Of a DNA stretch of 4,141 bases, positions 1-4,141 are shown piece after piece (within the stretch, counting starts at the first letter, position 1; every line of letters begins with the position of its first letter). Source of the stretch: a virus (Duplodnaviria > Heunggongvirae > Uroviricota > Caudoviricetes); the IMG/VR virus record IMGVR_UViG_2671181106_000002; one strand, written 5' to 3'. The notes under the pieces were generated by a model, which had not been told where the DNA came from, ran no database searches, and saw nothing but the letters and a program-made list of their open reading frames with translations. Made by a program: the position numbers and the translations under genes.

Positions 1-959
1 TTCCCGAGAGTGGTAAAGGAGAGGCCCTGGAAATACCCCACAGCCCCGAAAAAGAGCCAGTCAGTTGCTTAACTGACTGGCATTACAGCAAACTGGAGGA
101 GTTTTCGAAAGAGTGGAAAGACGCCAACGATAAATGGAATGCCATGTGGGGCGTCAAAATTGAGCAGACCGAAGACGGCAGGCATTATGTCGCGGGTATT
201 GGCCTCAGCATGGAGGATACGGAGGAAGGCAAACTGAGCCAGTTCCTGGTTGCCGCTAACCGTATCGCGTTTATTGACCCGGCAAACGGGAGTGAAACGC
301 CGATGTTTGTGGCGCAGGGCAACCAGATATTCATGAACGAAGTGTTCCTGAAGTATCTGACGGCTCCCACCATTACCAGCGGCGGCAATCCGCCGGTATT
401 TTCCCTGACACCGGACGGGCGGTTGACGGCGAAAAATGCCGATATCAGCGGTAACGTGAATGCGAACTCAGGGACGCTCAATAATGTCACGATTAACCAG
501 AACTGTCGGATTCTGGGAAAACTGTCTGCCAACCAGATTGAAGGTGATATTGTCAAAACGGTGGGAAAAGCCTTTCCGAGAAATGGCAGTTATGCCAGCG
601 GTACAATAACGGTCACTGTGTACGATGACCAGGCTTTTGACCGTCAGATAGTAATCCCACCCGTTCTGTTTCGCGGTGGTAAGCATGAAAACTTCAACAG
701 CAACAACCAACAGTCATACTGGTATTCAACCTGTAAGCTGCAGGTACTGAAGAACGGACAGGAAATCTTTCAGCAACCCGCGACGGATGTCAGCAGGGTA
801 TTTTCATCCGTCATTGATATGCCAGCGGGACACGGCCATGTCACCCTGACTTTCAATGTTTCTTCATATGGTGCAAATAACTGGACGCCAACGACCAGTA
901 TCAGCGACCTTCTTGTTGTCGTGATGAAGAAATCAACAGCCGGTATCAGTATCAGTTGA
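1..959 (+). CDS. J: Central tail fibre / host specificity protein J, C-terminal part (5'-truncated by window edge)
   Basis: Frame 3 is open from position 3 with no stop until TGA at 957-959; the listed ORF 144..959 is only the part after the first in-frame ATG. The translation ([48 protein letters not shown]...[15 protein letters not shown]...IDMPAG.G...) matches my recollection of the C-terminal receptor-binding region of phage lambda gpJ, including its characteristic ending (...KK...GISI/V). The last ~170 residues look more diverged than the first part. Confidence 0.9.
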
Positions 960-1017: not shown

Positions 1018-3078
1018 ATGGCAGTACAGATTTCAGGCGTGCTGAAAGACGGTGCAGGAAAACCAATACAGAACTGTACTATTCAGCTCAAAGCAAAGCG
1101 TAACAGCACCACGGTACTGGTGAACACGGTGGCCTCTGAAAATCCGGATGAAGCCGGGCGTTACAGCATGGATGTTGAGTATGGCCAGTACAGCGTCACC
1201 CTGCTGGTTGAAGGTTTTCCGCCTTCACATGCCGGGACCATTACCGTCTATGAAGGCTCCAGACCAGGTACGCTGAATGATTTTCTCGGTGCCATGACGG
1301 AAGATGATGTCATGCCGGAGGCATTGCGTCGTTTTGAGGTAATGGTGGAGGATGTGGCACGCAACGCTGAAGCCGCCTCTCAGAGCGCAGCGGCAGCAAA
1401 GAAATCAGAAACAGCAGCGGCATCGTCCAGGAACGCGGCGAAAACATCAGAGACGAATGCAGGTAACAGCGCGAAAGCGGCAGCTTCTTCAAAAACAGCC
1501 GCACAAAACGCAGCAACAGCGGCAGAACGTTCAGAGACAAATGCCCGTGCGTCAGAAGAAGCCTCCGCAGACAGTGAAGAGGCTTCCCGCCGTAATGCAG
1601 AGTCAGCCGCTGAAAATGCCGGAGTCGCCACCACAAAAGCGCGGGAGGCTGCAGCAGACGCAACAAAGGCCGGGCAGAAAAAGGATGAGGCTCTGTCGGC
1701 AGCGACACGAGCTGAAAAGGCGGCAGACCGCGCAGAAGCCGCAGCGGAAGTGACTGCAGAGCCCTATGCGAATATAGTGCCGCCGCTGCCTGATGTGTGG
1801 ATACCGTTTAACGATTCACTGGATATGATTGCGGGTTTTTCTCCGGGCTATAAAAAAATAGCTATTGGTGACGATGTGGTTCAGGTCGCCAGTGATAAAC
1901 AGGTTAATTTCAGTCGCGCATCAACGGCAACATATATCAACAAATCTGGCGAACTGAAAACGGCGGAAATTAATGAGCCGCGATTTGAGTGTGATGGCCT
2001 GCTTATTGAGGGACAAAGAACGAACTACATGCTCAATTCGGAAAGTCCAGCCAGCTGGGGGAAGTCATCAAACATGGATGTGCCCGAAACCGGGACGGAT
2101 AGTTTTGGTTTTACTTATGGAAAGTTTGTCTGCAACGATTCTCTGGTTGGGCAAACTTCGGCTATTAATATGGCATCAATTGCTGCAACAAAGTCAGTTG
2201 ATGTCTCAGGCGATAACAAGTACGTGACAACCTCATGCCGTTTTAAAACAGAACGACAGGTAAGGTTACGTATACGGTTTGATAAGTATGATGGTAGTGC
2301 AACAACTTTTCTTGGCGATGCGTACATTGATACGCAAACGCTTGAAATTAATATGACAGGTGGTGCTGCCGGCAGAATTACGGCACGAGTCAGGAAGGAT
2401 AAGACCACGGGCTGGATTTTTGCAGAGGCAACGATTCAGGCAATTGATGGTGAGTTAAAAATAGGCTCTCAGATACAGTATTCTCCTGAGCAGGGTGGGG
2501 CAACAGTATCTGGTGACTATATTTATCTTGCCACCCCACAAGTAGAGAATGGGCCGTGTGTATCATCATTTATTATTTCAGGAGGCAGCGCAACGACAAG
2601 AGCCAGTGATTTGGTTAGTATCCCCACCAGAAATAATCTTTATAAGTTACCATTTACTTTTTTACTTGAGATTCATAAAAACTGGGATATTGCACCAAAC
2701 GCCGCACCCCGCGTGTGGGATATAGCAGCAGCCAATACCGGGCAATCAGCAATTGCAGCAATCAACAGAGGTAGTGGTAAGTTATATATGAGTCTGTCAA
2801 ACCCTTCAGGCTCGTATGTTAATAGCGCAGCGACAGATGTATTTGCAGAGAAAACCACATTTGGATGTATTGCAAAAGCTGATGGTCACTTTCATGTGGT
2901 GACAAATGGTAAAGCGGTTAATGAAGTTTATTGTGAATATAATGGCGTGACCGCTGATAAAAATATCCGATTTGGAGGGCAGACGAATACTGGAGAACGA
3001 CATCTGTTTGGCCATATTCGCAATTTCCGCATATGGCATAAAGAATTAAATGACAGGCAATTAAAAGAGGTCGTATGA
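1018..3078 (+). CDS. stf: Side tail fibre protein (Stf-like) with mosaic C-terminal receptor-binding module
   Basis: 686-codon ORF. ATG at 1018 is preceded by GGAG (1009-1012) with a 5-nt spacer; the track's ORF begins 6 nt earlier at an in-frame GTG (1012). N-terminus MAVQISGVLKDGAGKPIQNCTIQLKA...GRYSMDVEYGQYSV...FPPSHAGTITVYE resembles the conserved N-terminal domain of lambda Stf / lambdoid side tail fibres as I recall it. It is followed by an Ala/Ser/Glu-rich region with KTSETNA / RSETNA motifs, also Stf-like. The C-terminal ~440 aa are unrelated to the Gly/His-rich lambda Stf C-terminus. Stop TGA at 3076-3078. Confidence 0.9.
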   Translation: MAVQISGVLKDGAGKPIQNCTIQLKAKRNSTTVLVNTVASENPDEAGRYSMDVEYGQYSVTLLVEGFPPSHAGTITVYEGSRPGTLNDFLGAMTEDDVMPEALRRFEVMVEDVARNAEAASQSAAAAKKSETAAASSRNAAKTSETNAGNSAKAAASSKTAAQNAATAAERSETNARASEEASADSEEASRRNAESAAENAGVATTKAREAAADATKAGQKKDEALSAATRAEKAADRAEAAAEVTAEPYANIVPPLPDVWIPFNDSLDMIAGFSPGYKKIAIGDDVVQVASDKQVNFSRASTATYINKSGELKTAEINEPRFECDGLLIEGQRTNYMLNSESPASWGKSSNMDVPETGTDSFGFTYGKFVCNDSLVGQTSAINMASIAATKSVDVSGDNKYVTTSCRFKTERQVRLRIRFDKYDGSATTFLGDAYIDTQTLEINMTGGAAGRITARVRKDKTTGWIFAEATIQAIDGELKIGSQIQYSPEQGGATVSGDYIYLATPQVENGPCVSSFIISGGSATTRASDLVSIPTRNNLYKLPFTFLLEIHKNWDIAPNAAPRVWDIAAANTGQSAIAAINRGSGKLYMSLSNPSGSYVNSAATDVFAEKTTFGCIAKADGHFHVVTNGKAVNEVYCEYNGVTADKNIRFGGQTNTGERHLFGHIRNFRIWHKELNDRQLKEVV
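1354..1750 (+). repeat. Low-complexity Ala/Ser/Glu-rich degenerate repeat region inside stf (fibre shaft)
   Basis: The protein segment ...EAASQSAAAAKKSETAAASSRNAAKTSETNAGNSAKAAASSKTAAQNAATAAERSETNARASEEAS... has recurring GCx/TCx/GAx codons and repeated DNA words (tcagagacGaatgc at ~1447 and tcagagacAaatgc at ~1533). The region is open in several frames on both strands, which explains the overlapping shadow ORFs 1352..1753 (+), 1310..1708 (-) and 1380..1634 (-). Confidence 0.7.
2540..3075 (+). other. Probable concanavalin A-like / LamG-like lectin domain at the Stf C-terminus (domain annotation inside stf)
   Basis: The C-terminal segment ...GHFHVVTNGKAVNEVYCEYNGVTADKNIRFGGQTNTGERHLFGHIRNFRIWHKELNDRQLKEVV follows the characteristic end pattern of LamG/ConA-like jellyroll domains (core strand 'HxxVVxxG', then 'xxFxGxIxxxRIY/WxxxLxxxEI/L'). 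This is motif-level recognition only and the domain start is approximate. Confidence 0.45.
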
Positions 3079-3353
3079 AAGATTTAACTTTGAAGTTTCA
3101 TGACAAACTGCAGTTTAAGGCCTTCCTGTCATCTCTTGGCTGGGCGGAAGATGAAGACCTCCAGAATAAACTGTTAGTTGATGAAATTGGTTTCACCTAC
3201 ACAGAAACAGGGGTAACAGAAGAGGGAGAACCTGTCTGTATCCGGAATGATGGTTATTTTGTCAACATTCGCATTCTTGATGACTTGTTTGATGTTTCTG
3301 TATTCTCTGATTATGTCGTGGAGCTGGAAACACCGCTTCGGGAATGGAGCTGA
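3075..3353 (+). CDS. Hypothetical small acidic protein (92 aa), translationally coupled to stf; function unknown
   Basis: The ATG at 3075-3077 overlaps the stf stop (ATGA overlap). AAGAGG (3064-3069) lies 5 nt upstream. The ORF ends at TGA 3351-3353. The product MKDLTLKFHDKLQFKAFLSSLGWAEDEDLQNK... is acidic with no hydrophobic segment. Its AT-rich composition matches the 3' part of stf. It does not resemble the lambda Tfa N-terminus as I recall it. Confidence 0.7.
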   Translation: MKDLTLKFHDKLQFKAFLSSLGWAEDEDLQNKLLVDEIGFTYTETGVTEEGEPVCIRNDGYFVNIRILDDLFDVSVFSDYVVELETPLREWS

Positions 3354-3360
3354 AAGGAGG
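3354..3360 (+). promoter_or_regulatory. Shine-Dalgarno sequence for the downstream membrane-protein ORF
   Basis: AAGGAGG at 3354-3360, then a 5-nt spacer (AAATA) and ATG at 3366. It sits immediately after the orf92 stop, giving an operon-like arrangement. Confidence 0.8.
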
Positions 3361-3365
3361 AAATA

Positions 3366-3806
3366 ATGGATATAAGCCCCTTACTTCATGCACTTTGTGC
3401 TGTGGCTGCGCAGATACTGGTTGGTCTTTTTACCGGAAACTGGGCTTACGGAGCGATAGCCGGTTGTACGTTCTTCATTGCGCGTGAACATACCCAGGCA
3501 GAATATCGCTGGATTGAAATGTTCGGGCATGGCAAGCGAATGAATATGCCGTGGTGGGGCGGTTTTGATCCGCGTGCTTGGGATGTGGCAAGCCTGATGG
3601 ATTTTGCTGTGCCGGTGGTGGCGTGTCTGCTGGTCTGGCTGTTGGTTAATCGTGGGCGAAAAAAGGTGAGCTGTATATGCAACGGAGGAAGAAACCCCGT
3701 TGCTGGAAGCCAGGAAAAAGTATCGGGTGTTGCTGTCCTCGGATGTTGTGCTAATTGGGTGATAACAGATCCTGTGTATGGGAGTTTCCCTTTTTGCGTG
3801 CGTTGA
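3366..3806 (+). CDS. Hypothetical small membrane protein (predicted 2-3 transmembrane segments); C-terminal extent uncertain
   Basis: Strong RBS. Hydrophobic stretches at about residues 8-40 (LHALCAVAAQILVGLFTGNWAYGAIAGCTFFIA) and 73-95 (WDVASLMDFAVPVVACLLVWLLV) are followed by basic NRGRKK. The GC-richer composition differs from orf92. The final ~45 codons (VSCICNGGRNPVAGSQEK...FCVR) have an atypical Cys/Gly-rich composition and overlap the 3' end of the convergent permease gene, so the true C-terminus may be shorter or the ORF may be junction-derived. Confidence 0.6.
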   Translation: MDISPLLHALCAVAAQILVGLFTGNWAYGAIAGCTFFIAREHTQAEYRWIEMFGHGKRMNMPWWGGFDPRAWDVASLMDFAVPVVACLLVWLLVNRGRKKVSCICNGGRNPVAGSQEKVSGVAVLGCCANWVITDPVYGSFPFCVR

Positions 3807-4141
3807 TGCTGGTAACGGCAAACGTCATGATGAACAAAACCGCGAATAAGACGACAATCGTCGGAGCTGGTGCGCTGTCGATAAAAAAGGACAACCAGAC
3901 ACCAGTCATTGACACTATTACCGATATGCCAGTCGCCAGTAGGAGCGCAATATGAAAGCGTTGTGTCAGGAGTACCGCAATGGCGCCAGGCGCAATGAGC
4001 AGAGAAATGGAGAGAATGATACCTACCGCTTTCAGCGTCGCCACAATGGTCAGAGAGACCATGCACAGCAGCCCATAATGCAGCCATCTCGTATGCAAAC
4101 CGCTTACCTGCGCCTGTTGATAATCAAAGCTAAACTGCATA
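3751..4141 (-). CDS. sitD: ABC-3 family metal (Mn2+/Fe2+) transporter permease, C-terminal part; SitD-like (5' end lies beyond the window)
   Basis: The minus-strand ORF is open to the window edge, with stop TAG (complement of 3751-3753). The translation ...LHTRWLHYGLLCMVSLTIVATLKAVGIILSISLLIAPGAIAVLLTQRFHIA...FFIDSAPAPTIVVLFAVLFIMTF... has the characteristic C-terminal pattern of ZnuB/MntB/SitD-type permeases (compare ZnuB ...VGALIITSLLIIPAATAR...YDTPAGPSVVLCAALLFIL). sit operons are known to lie next to lambdoid prophage DNA in E. coli/Shigella. The sitD assignment is from memory, not a search. Confidence 0.65.
   Translation of the reverse strand, partial: MQFSFDYQQAQVSGLHTRWLHYGLLCMVSLTIVATLKAVGIILSISLLIAPGAIAVLLTQRFHIALLLATGISVIVSMTGVWLSFFIDSAPAPTIVVLFAVLFIMTFAVTSINARKKGNSHTQDLLSPN

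What the first reader, a model, noticed from the sequence alone, without database searches (positions are those of the whole stretch)
3366..3806. Small predicted inner-membrane protein with strong RBS and an anomalous C-terminal extension
A textbook SD (AAGGAGG, 5-nt spacer) drives an ORF with two long hydrophobic segments and a positive-inside NRGRKK motif. After that motif the ORF runs another ~45 codons with unusual Cys/Gly-rich composition and overlaps the convergent permease gene by about 56 bp. Either the functional protein is the ~100-aa membrane core and the tail is read-through across a recombination junction, or this is a genuine extended protein. The gene's location suggests a moron, for example a superinfection-exclusion protein acting at the inner membrane.
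Basis: partly seen in the sequence, partly recalled or inferred. Interest (0 to 1): 0.55.

Follow-up and report, generated by a model that had tools for sequence, protein, structure and literature searches.

The report
Stop-codon loss in phage membrane gene
This is a real, conserved 97-residue phage membrane-protein gene of unknown function. In this strain's decayed prophage a single T-to-C change destroyed its stop codon, so the odd 49-residue tail is accidental read-through, which is an ordinary mutational event.

Summary
The ORF, its AAGGAGG ribosome-binding site and the 56-bp overlap with sitD are all present as described. The first 97 codons (3366-3656) belong to an uncharacterised family, PHROG 1443, whose members are almost all 90-110 aa and end at ...LLVNRG.

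Phage 21, phage Tritos and 1397 complete E. coli records have TGA at 3657-3659. The window and 77 other records have CGA. The Cys/Gly-rich tail is therefore a stop-loss read-through. It runs across:
- an out-of-frame relic of a tail-fibre-assembly gene;
- the junction with the sitABCD cargo module (3724-3736);
- the antisense 3' end of sitD.

AlphaFold gives a confident three-helix core and no structure for the tail. The window comes from a badly deleted phage-21-like prophage at icd, with IS4 in J, and NCBI already marks this allele a pseudogene.

The function of the core family is unproven. In phages of all three tail types it sits directly after the receptor-binding-protein gene. In a P22-like phage it has moron-like anatomy, and published lysogen RNA-seq shows it induced in macrophages. 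A lysogenic-conversion or exclusion role at the inner membrane is plausible but untested. Stand-alone chromosomal homologues also exist.

The parts
3354..3360 (+). Shine-Dalgarno AAGGAGG, 5-nt spacer before the ATG
   Evidence: Read directly from the sequence. Phage 21 annotates an RBS at the same place.
3366..3656 (+). Conserved 97-codon core of the small membrane protein (PHROG 1443 family). It has three predicted helices (4-23, 26-52, 74-96).
   Evidence: phrog_1443 matches residues 1-96 at E = 7.4e-58. Homologues are 95-102 aa and end ...LLVNRG. AF2 pLDDT is 91.6. PGAP annotates exactly this span as a pseudogene fragment.
3657..3659 (+). CGA codon at the position of the family's TGA stop. 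This is a stop-loss caused by T>C at 3657.
   Evidence: Phage 21 and Tritos have T at 3657. The exact 81-mer with CGA occurs in 78 E. coli records and with TGA in 1397.
3660..3806 (+). Adventitious 48-codon read-through plus its stop (TGA 3804-3806). It is Cys/Gly/Val-rich.
   Evidence: Composition. No homologue carries it except alleles of this locus. pLDDT is below 50 for residues 99-146.
3679..3735 (+). Relic of the C-terminal end of a tail-fibre-assembly gene (Caudo_TAP), in the +1 frame relative to the ORF and cut off by the sit junction
   Evidence: PGAP annotates the same DNA as a tfa fragment in BL21 and NCTC86. Pfam PF02413 positions 95-130 match at E = 7.7e-14 and 8.5e-17 there. The window's stump matches at E = 0.006.
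3724..3736 (.). Junction between the phage backbone and the sitABCD cargo module
   Evidence: Homology with Tritos, which has no sit operon, ends at ~3735. Plasmid-borne sit modules align from 3724 onward.
3751..4140 (-). 3' part of sitD (Mn/Fe ABC permease), convergent. Its last 56 bp are overlapped in antisense by the read-through.
   Evidence: Pfam ABC-3 at E = 5.9e-26. Annotated as sitD in RefSeq genomes and in phage 21.
3075..3353 (+). Upstream 92-aa ORF (PHROG 1361, unknown function). It overlaps the stf stop and ends 12 nt before the target ATG.
   Evidence: phrog_1361 at E = 3.2e-42. It is found only in Escherichia loci.
1018..3078 (+). Side tail fibre (lambda Stf-type N-terminus with a head-spike-fibre / lectin-like C-terminus). 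This is the receptor-binding gene that the small genes follow.
   Evidence: Pfam phage_tail_N at 4.8e-67 and Laminin_G_3. NCBIfam GTA_spike_fiber. phrog_1419.

Best explanation
Shown: the locus is a stop-loss allele of a conserved 97-residue phage inner-membrane protein gene (PHROG 1443; phage 21 CPT_21_24).
- The ancestral gene ends ...VNRG-TGA.
- In this lineage T>C at 3657 made the stop CGA, so ribosomes that start at the strong RBS run on for 49 more codons.
- Those codons cross (i) the former 3' untranslated spacer, (ii) an out-of-frame relic of a tail-fibre-assembly gene, (iii) the phage/sitABCD junction, and (iv) the antisense strand of the last 56 bp of sitD. Translation stops at a chance TGA.
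- The allele sits in a grounded, heavily deleted phage-21-like prophage at icd, where phage genes are under relaxed selection.

Inferred: the tail is an unselected appendage, and the 97-residue three-helix core is the functional unit.

Inferred with low confidence (about 0.35): the core is an accessory gene that travels with receptor-binding-protein genes and acts in the cytoplasmic membrane of the lysogen or infected cell. It would alter an envelope step that incoming phages need, either DNA entry or surface-polysaccharide assembly. It would do so through a cluster of invariant polar residues (D2, H8, E41/H42, E46, D68, D79) that lie at one membrane face. My positive-inside reading is N-out, C-in, with the conserved 40-73 loop periplasmic.
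For: Anatomy of the allele:
- The single-base difference from phage 21 and Tritos is at 3657.
- In 5426 complete E. coli genomes, 78 records carry the CGA 81-mer and 1397 carry the TGA 81-mer.
- Family members are 95-102 aa with the same C-terminal end, across Escherichia, Aeromonas, Comamonas, Leclercia and Salmonella. The phrog_1443 profile is 97 positions long. In the search of 50%-identity cluster representatives, matching proteins, fragments aside, are about 90-145 aa, mostly 90-110.
- The tail crosses a tfa relic in another frame and the sit junction.
- AF2 gives pLDDT 91.6 for the core. In the 146-aa form, residues 99-146 are below 50 with no secondary structure.

Prophage decay:
- The window differs at 4 nt from FDAARGOS_536. 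There IS4 splits J, and all head and tail genes between the lysis genes and J are gone.
- The same remnant, with a frameshifted integrase and O gene, is in MCJCHV-1.
- PGAP flags the allele as a pseudogene.

Functional guess:
- The gene lies directly after the RBP gene in lambda-like, P2/HP1-like, multi-tailspike, podovirus-like and P22-like genomes.
- In Gally it follows a terminator, an AT-rich (25% GC) spacer and a promoter-like site, between the tailspike gene and int.
- In LF82 lysogens the Gally paralogue rises from log2 3.8-4.5 (LB) to 8.4-8.7 (macrophage). The Perceval orthologue rises from 3.2-3.8 to 5.6-6.4, while head, tail and J genes stay at background (PMC9928086 S1 table).
Against: On the tail:
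- Nothing shows directly that the tail is harmless or useless. 78 complete genomes keep it, and no expression data exist for this allele.
- The AF2 result for the tail is weak, because only two rows of the alignment cover it.

On the function:
- No phenotype has been tested.
- There are no hits in PADLOC, Pfam or NCBIfam.
- In the window the gene has no promoter or terminator of its own (12-nt gap).
- In LB the Perceval orthologue was 11.5 against a moron cut-off of 35.6, and the Tritos copy was not induced.
- Sequence conservation is high (about 60% identity between E. coli and Comamonas or Aeromonas) and independent of RBP type. This is unusual for exclusion proteins.
- Stand-alone chromosomal homologues next to housekeeping genes (Aeromonas; sphingomonads) suggest a cell-physiological role.
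Confidence: 0.85

Rival explanations
1. The 146-residue protein is a genuine, selected extended form. The Cys/Gly-rich tail would add a cytoplasmic or periplasmic domain, for example for metal binding next to the Sit transporter.
For: The allele is fixed in 78 complete genomes. The tail has 5 Cys and starts with R-K-K, which would reinforce a C-in topology. It lies beside a metal-uptake operon.
Against: The tail arises from one base change in an otherwise identical sequence. The same DNA is untranslated in 1397 records and in viable phages. It is made of an out-of-frame tfa relic, a junction and antisense sitD. It has no predicted structure. The host prophage is decaying. Adjacency to sit is not a family trait, since Tritos, BL21 and Gally lack it.
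Confidence: 0.04
2. The 97-aa core is a late-operon accessory protein of the receptor-binding module. It would be needed during lytic growth, for example by handling fibres or tailspikes at the membrane or protecting progeny. It would not be a lysogen-expressed moron.
For: In the window, in Leclercia and in Desulfovibrio it is in line with structural genes, with gaps of 0-12 nt, and is followed by further tail genes. In LF82 the Perceval copy rises together with stf and orf92.
Against: In Gally it follows a terminator and has its own promoter-like site. Stand-alone chromosomal copies exist with no phage genes nearby. Conservation does not track RBP type.
Confidence: 0.2
3. The family is a general cell-envelope or ion- or metal-handling small membrane protein of Proteobacteria that phages carry as cargo. 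Any benefit would go to host physiology, not to phage defence.
For: Chromosomal stand-alone members occur beside pirin, ligA, pnp, DAHP synthase and amn genes. The invariant His/Glu/Asp/Cys/Met pattern resembles a ligand or metal site. Induction occurs in DMEM and in macrophages.
Against: In phages the gene sits next to RBP genes in every phage context examined, across sipho-, myo- and podovirus layouts. Neutral cargo would not be expected to do this. No fold or family match points to a transporter or enzyme.
Confidence: 0.2
4. The protein is a class-I-like holin or lysis regulator. It resembles one in having about 100 aa and three membrane helices.
For: Size and helix count match. Some virulent phages place a holin after the tail-fibre gene (own knowledge: T7 17.5, T4 t).
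Against: These phages have their own S/R/Rz cassette elsewhere. The family has a long conserved inter-helix loop and only a 1-8-residue C-terminus rather than a charged tail. Chromosomal homologues exist. The neighbours in Comamonas gave no lysis-gene matches.
Confidence: 0.03

Closest known systems
Phage 21 CPT_21_24 'putative membrane protein' (UMO75439.1) / PHROG 1443 / RefSeq WP_000355603-type hypothetical proteins
   Same: This is the same gene. It is 99-100% identical over codons 1-97, with the same RBS, the same upstream 92-aa ORF and the same position before sitD.
   Different: Those genes end at TGA after 97 codons. The window has CGA and reads on to 146 codons. No function is known for any member.
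Inner-membrane superinfection-exclusion proteins of temperate phages (HK97 gp15, P22 SieA, T4 Imm)
   Same: They are small prophage-borne cytoplasmic-membrane proteins encoded near the tail or integration end of the genome. The proposed mode of action is interference with entry of incoming phage DNA (own knowledge; reviewed in PMC11436027 and PMC10883804, titles and abstracts seen).
   Different: No sequence or fold relationship was detected. This family is far more conserved across genera and has chromosomal stand-alone members. No exclusion phenotype has been tested.
Lysogenic-conversion loci between the tailspike gene and int in P22-like phages (gtrABC of P22, oac of Sf6)
   Same: In phage Gally the family member occupies exactly this slot, with a terminator and a promoter-like site before it.
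   Different: It is a single 95-aa protein. It has no similarity to GtrA/B/C or to acyltransferases, and no evidence links it to O-antigen change.
Stop-loss (nonstop-extension) pseudogenes in grounded prophages
   Same: A single base change removes the stop inside a prophage that has lost its head and tail genes, carries IS insertions and has a frameshifted int and O. PGAP flags the allele as a pseudogene.
   Different: The coding core is untouched, so the product may still work with an appended tail.

Membership tests
PHROG 1443 (uncharacterised phage protein family) | Full-length match to the family profile | tested here: met
   Residues 1-96 match profile positions 1-96 of 97 at E = 7.4e-58.
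PHROG 1443 (uncharacterised phage protein family) | Protein ends within a few residues after the third helix (total about 95-102 aa) | tested here: not met
   The window allele is 146 aa because TGA became CGA at 3657-3659. The departure is a point mutation, not a different architecture.
Moron (independent transcription unit added to a phage genome) | Own promoter upstream and terminator downstream, between genes of the core phage programme | tested here: not met
   In the window there is a 12-nt gap to the upstream ORF, no promoter-like site in 3075-3366, and no terminator-like site between the gene and sitD. The scan is consensus-based only. In phage Gally the paralogue does have a terminator, an AT-rich spacer, a promoter-like site and then the gene.
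Moron (independent transcription unit added to a phage genome) | Base composition differs from neighbouring phage genes | tested here: met
   The core is 52.9% GC. orf92 is 41.9% and the stf C-terminal part is 43.8%.
Moron (independent transcription unit added to a phage genome) | Expressed from the repressed prophage | tested here: inconclusive
   Published LF82 RNA-seq gives the Perceval orthologue at 11.5 in LB, against a background of 7.1 and a cut-off of 35.6. In macrophages it is up about 8-fold while other structural genes are silent. The Gally paralogue rises to log2 8.4-8.7. The Tritos copy is flat. No data exist for this allele, and reads may cross-map between the 93%-identical copies.
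Superinfection-exclusion membrane proteins | Expression lowers infection by other phages at adsorption or DNA entry | not testable with these tools
   This needs plating, adsorption and DNA-entry assays. PADLOC has no match.
Holins (class I) | Encoded in the lysis cassette, with short loops and a charged C-terminal cytoplasmic tail | tested here: not met
   The gene lies after the tail-fibre genes, and S/R/Rz are elsewhere. It has a 21-residue gap between helices 2 and 3 inside the conserved 40-73 segment, and a 1-8-residue C-terminus.
Integral membrane protein | Hydrophobic helices long enough to span the bilayer | tested here: met
   Hydropathy windows reach up to 2.3. AF2 gives helices 4-23, 26-52 and 74-96. 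The phage 21 record notes 2 TMDs by TMHMM. The number of spans (2 or 3) and the orientation are not settled.

The most novel reading that the evidence does not exclude
PHROG 1443 could be an unrecognised, widely distributed conversion or exclusion protein that travels with receptor-binding-protein genes across sipho-, myo- and podoviruses of Alpha-, Beta-, Gamma- and Deltaproteobacteria. It would use a conserved polar, possibly metal-binding, site at the membrane surface to change an envelope step needed by incoming phages. It would be switched on in lysogens under host-like conditions such as macrophages.
Probability: 0.3. Interest if true: 0.5.

Novelty: already known. Interest (0 to 1): 0.22.

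Why it matters
The extension itself matters little. It is a textbook stop-loss in a decaying prophage, and NCBI's pipeline already flags it. It is a useful reminder that long ORFs running into a convergent gene often signal a lost stop codon.

The core family is of modest interest:
- It is very well conserved, has no known function, and many E. coli genomes carry more than one copy (median 1, up to 4 places per genome; LF82 carries one in each of three prophages).
- It always sits next to the genes that decide phage host range.
- It is induced in an adherent-invasive E. coli inside macrophages.

If it proved to be an exclusion or conversion factor, it would add a common, cross-morphotype player to prophage-mediated phage resistance.

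Tried and rejected
Database searches for the 97/146-aa protein:
- Pfam gave only PhoR at E = 0.085. NCBIfam and PADLOC gave nothing.
- A PDB sequence search with the family profile gave one hit at E = 1.4.
- The afdb50 library was unavailable.

Literature:
- Searches for accession numbers or family names found nothing. 'phage 21' combined with sit terms found nothing.
- The svsR sRNA of the icd-integrated prophage NC-SV lies at cI, not here.
- Tai tail-assembly-interference systems are unrelated.

Rejected ideas:
- A conserved gene pair with the upstream 92-aa protein was rejected, because phrog_1361 is found only in Escherichia loci.
- A lysis cassette after the Comamonas homologue was rejected, because its neighbours have no lysis-family matches.
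- Sequencing error as the source of CGA was rejected, because 78 complete genomes share it.
- The Rfam IS009 hit at 3595-3755 scores 51 bits against a gathering score of 117. It is essentially a sequence match to the tfa relic, with almost no structure, so it is not treated as an RNA gene.

Method problem: my first neighbour clustering was spoiled by long antisense ORFs in GC-rich loci. I replaced it with targeted scans.

Full report
- 1-85: the end of an IS4 copy.
- 86-959: the C-terminal part of tail-tip protein J, followed by a terminator hairpin at 978-997.
- 1018-3078: a side tail fibre with a lambda Stf-type N-terminus and a head-spike-fibre / lectin-like C-terminus.
- 3075-3353: a 92-aa ORF (phrog_1361).
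- 3366-3806: the target ORF.
- 3751-4140, convergent on the minus strand: the 3' part of sitD.

The closest complete genome, E. coli FDAARGOS_536, differs at 4 bases. The region there is a phage-21-type prophage at icd that still carries sitABCD. It has IS4 in J and has lost every head and tail gene between the lysis genes and J. Strain MCJCHV-1 has the same remnant with a frameshifted integrase and O gene.

- The ribosome-binding site AAGGAGG lies at 3354-3360, followed by a 5-nt spacer and ATG at 3366.
- The ORF encodes 146 aa. The hydrophobic stretches, the composition of the last 49 residues (5 Cys, 6 Gly, 8 Val) and the 56-bp overlap with sitD are all as described.
- AlphaFold2, run with a 30-sequence alignment, models the first 97 residues with pLDDT 91.6 as three helices: 4-23, 26-52 and 74-96.

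**Where the conserved protein ends.**
- The protein matches PHROG 1443, a 97-position family of unknown function, over residues 1-96 at E = 7.4e-58.
- A search of 5.8 billion proteins gave 543 homologues. Full-length ones cover about 64-66% of the query and are 95-102 aa long. The closest end ...LLVWLLVNRG.
- In a 30-sequence alignment from Escherichia, Aeromonas, Comamonas, Leclercia, Salmonella and metagenomes, nothing extends more than 8 residues past the third helix.

**Why this copy is longer.** Phage 21 and phage Tritos have TGA at 3657-3659, where the window has CGA. Across the 441-nt ORF, this is one of only three differences from phage 21; the other two are synonymous. I searched 5426 complete E. 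coli genomes with 81-mers centred on this base. The CGA version has 78 exact records and the TGA version has 1397. TGA is therefore ancestral and CGA is a derived minority allele. NCBI's pipeline annotates the CGA allele as a 97-codon pseudogene fragment.

**What the tail is made of.**
- Homology with Tritos, which has no sit operon, continues past the stop to about 3735.
- In BL21 and NCTC86 the same DNA is annotated as the C-terminal stump of a tail-fibre-assembly gene. Pfam Caudo_TAP positions 95-130 match there at E = 7.7e-14 and 8.5e-17.
- In the window that stump (3679-3735) lies in the +1 frame, reading ...ATEEETPLLEARKKYRVLL, so the ORF reads it out of frame.
- Plasmid-borne sit operons align from 3724 onward, which places the backbone/sit junction at 3724-3736.
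- From 3751 the ORF runs antisense to sitD until a chance TGA.
- A model of the 146-aa form keeps the three-helix core and gives residues 99-146 pLDDT below 50 and no secondary structure. This is weak evidence, because few sequences cover the tail.

Taken together, the tail is an accident of one base change in a prophage that is no longer under selection as a phage.

**What the 97-residue protein might do.** No library names it. Pfam, NCBIfam and PADLOC gave nothing, and the PDB sequence and fold searches were uninformative.

*Distribution and conservation.*
- The family is modest in size: 339 clusters at 50% identity with E <= 0.001.
- It is spread over Alpha-, Beta-, Gamma- and Deltaproteobacteria.
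- Its invariant residues are mostly polar or aromatic: D2, H8, Q16, C34, R40, E41, E46, R48, W49, R58, M61-P62, G65-G66-F67-D68, W72, D79, P83 and C87.
- On an up-down-up three-helix model, H8, E41/H42 and D79 fall at one membrane face. Q16, C34 and C87 fall one level (8 residues) deeper. This is an inference from helix positions, not from coordinates.
- Positive charges at the 24-25 turn and at the C-termini of relatives suggest N-out, C-in, with the conserved 40-73 loop periplasmic. This is also an inference.

*Genomic context in phages.* In phage genomes the gene lies directly after the receptor-binding-protein gene:
- lambda-like stf modules in E. coli;
- gpJ in Comamonas;
- a P2/HP1-like tail fibre with an S74 chaperone domain in Leclercia, with more baseplate genes after it;
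- between two tailspike genes in Salmonella;
- a tailspike, then the gene, then a nozzle protein in a Desulfovibrio contig;
- a tailspike, then the gene, then int in the P22-like phage Gally.

In Gally the gene follows an intrinsic terminator, a 25%-GC spacer and a promoter-like site. This is the classical anatomy of a moron in the slot where P22-like phages carry conversion genes.

*Published expression data.* RNA-seq of E. coli LF82, which carries three paralogues, gives the following (PMC9928086 S1 table).
- The Perceval orthologue is near background in LB: 11.5 against a median of 7.1 and the authors' moron cut-off of 35.6. It is about 8-fold higher inside macrophages, together with stf and orf92, while head, tail and J genes stay at background.
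- The Gally paralogue rises from log2 3.8-4.5 to 8.4-8.7.
- The Tritos copy does not move.

*Evidence against a purely phage-defence role.*
- Stand-alone homologues lie next to housekeeping genes in Aeromonas (pirin) and in sphingomonads (ligA, pnp, DAHP synthase, amn).
- Conservation is much higher than is usual for exclusion proteins.

My best guess, at roughly one in three, is an inner-membrane conversion or exclusion factor linked to receptor-binding modules. A late accessory role for the fibre module and a general envelope or ion-handling role each get about one in five. A holin role is unlikely.

**Comparison with known things.** The gene is the same as phage 21 CPT_21_24, 'putative membrane protein'. 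The sitABCD neighbour is known cargo of phage 21 and of about 70% of infant-gut lambda phages (PMC6969025). The extended allele is already in RefSeq as a pseudogene. Nothing here is new in kind.

**Verdict.** The moron / exclusion idea remains a reasonable but untested guess about the 97-residue core.

Noticed in passing
window 1-85 (and 86-959): The first 85 bases are the end of an IS4 element inserted in tail-tip gene J. Only 3 of the listed best-matching genomes align from base 1, and the other listed ones align from base 86. In FDAARGOS_536 an IS4 transposase is annotated immediately upstream.
   Followed up: partly
window 3659-3665: The stop-loss puts the heptamer A_AAA_AAG, the dnaX-type -1 slippery sequence, in phase in the translated frame (CGA AAA AAG). 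Some ribosomes could shift to the -1 frame and make ...KKGELYMQRRKKPRCWKPGKSIGCCCPRMLC* instead of the 146-aa product. One metagenomic protein (P0012) reads this same downstream frame after an upstream deletion. I looked for no stimulatory elements beyond reading the sequence.
   Followed up: no
window 3595-3755: There is a sub-threshold Rfam match to IS009 (RF02111), at 51 bits against a gathering score of 117 and E = 6e-10. The aligned part is essentially the tail-fibre-assembly gene relic and has almost no structure. The Rfam family may itself be built on such prophage relics.
   Followed up: partly
window 1018-3078; L001 10019-12079: The side-tail-fibre ORF is intact (686 codons from the ATG at 1018; the ORF listing aa from a GTG at 1012) in both the window and FDAARGOS_536. 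PGAP nevertheless splits it into a 'partial' N-terminal pseudogene and a separate 'head spike fiber domain' protein in the same frame. This looks like an annotation artefact.
   Followed up: partly
LF82 prophages Perceval, Tritos, Gally (PMC9928086 S1 table; orthologues of window 1018-3656): In all three prophages the receptor-binding gene and the small genes after it are 4- to 30-fold up inside macrophages, while the capsid, tail-tube, tape-measure and J genes stay at background. This points to transcription of the fibre/tailspike modules independent of the late operon. The paper does not mention tail fibres or these locus tags in its main text.
   Followed up: partly
L004 6001-6309 (Aeromonas rivipollensis); L068, L049, L038, L040 (sphingomonads): Homologues of the 97-aa protein stand alone in chromosomes next to housekeeping genes (pirin, ligA, pnp, DAHP synthase, AMP nucleosidase), with no phage genes within 5-6 kb. 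Four Aeromonas species share the same neighbourhood, which suggests vertical inheritance.
   Followed up: partly
window 4132, 4136, 4140: Three of the four differences from the closest genome cluster in the last 10 bases of the window, inside sitD. The rest of the 4.1 kb has a single difference, at base 45.
   Followed up: no
window 3366-3656 versus 1751-3353: There is a compositional step. The membrane-protein core is 52.9% GC, while the preceding orf92 (41.9%) and the fibre C-terminal part (43.8%) are much lower. This is consistent with the small gene having a separate origin from the fibre module it follows.
   Followed up: no
L002 (phage 21) 6386-9835; window 3751-4140: The complete sitABCD Mn/Fe uptake operon is carried by viable phage 21 between the tail-fibre module and attP. 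Plasmid-borne sit operons are only about 91% identical and share the downstream flank from window 3724. This hints at a common junction history for the phage and plasmid copies.
   Followed up: partly
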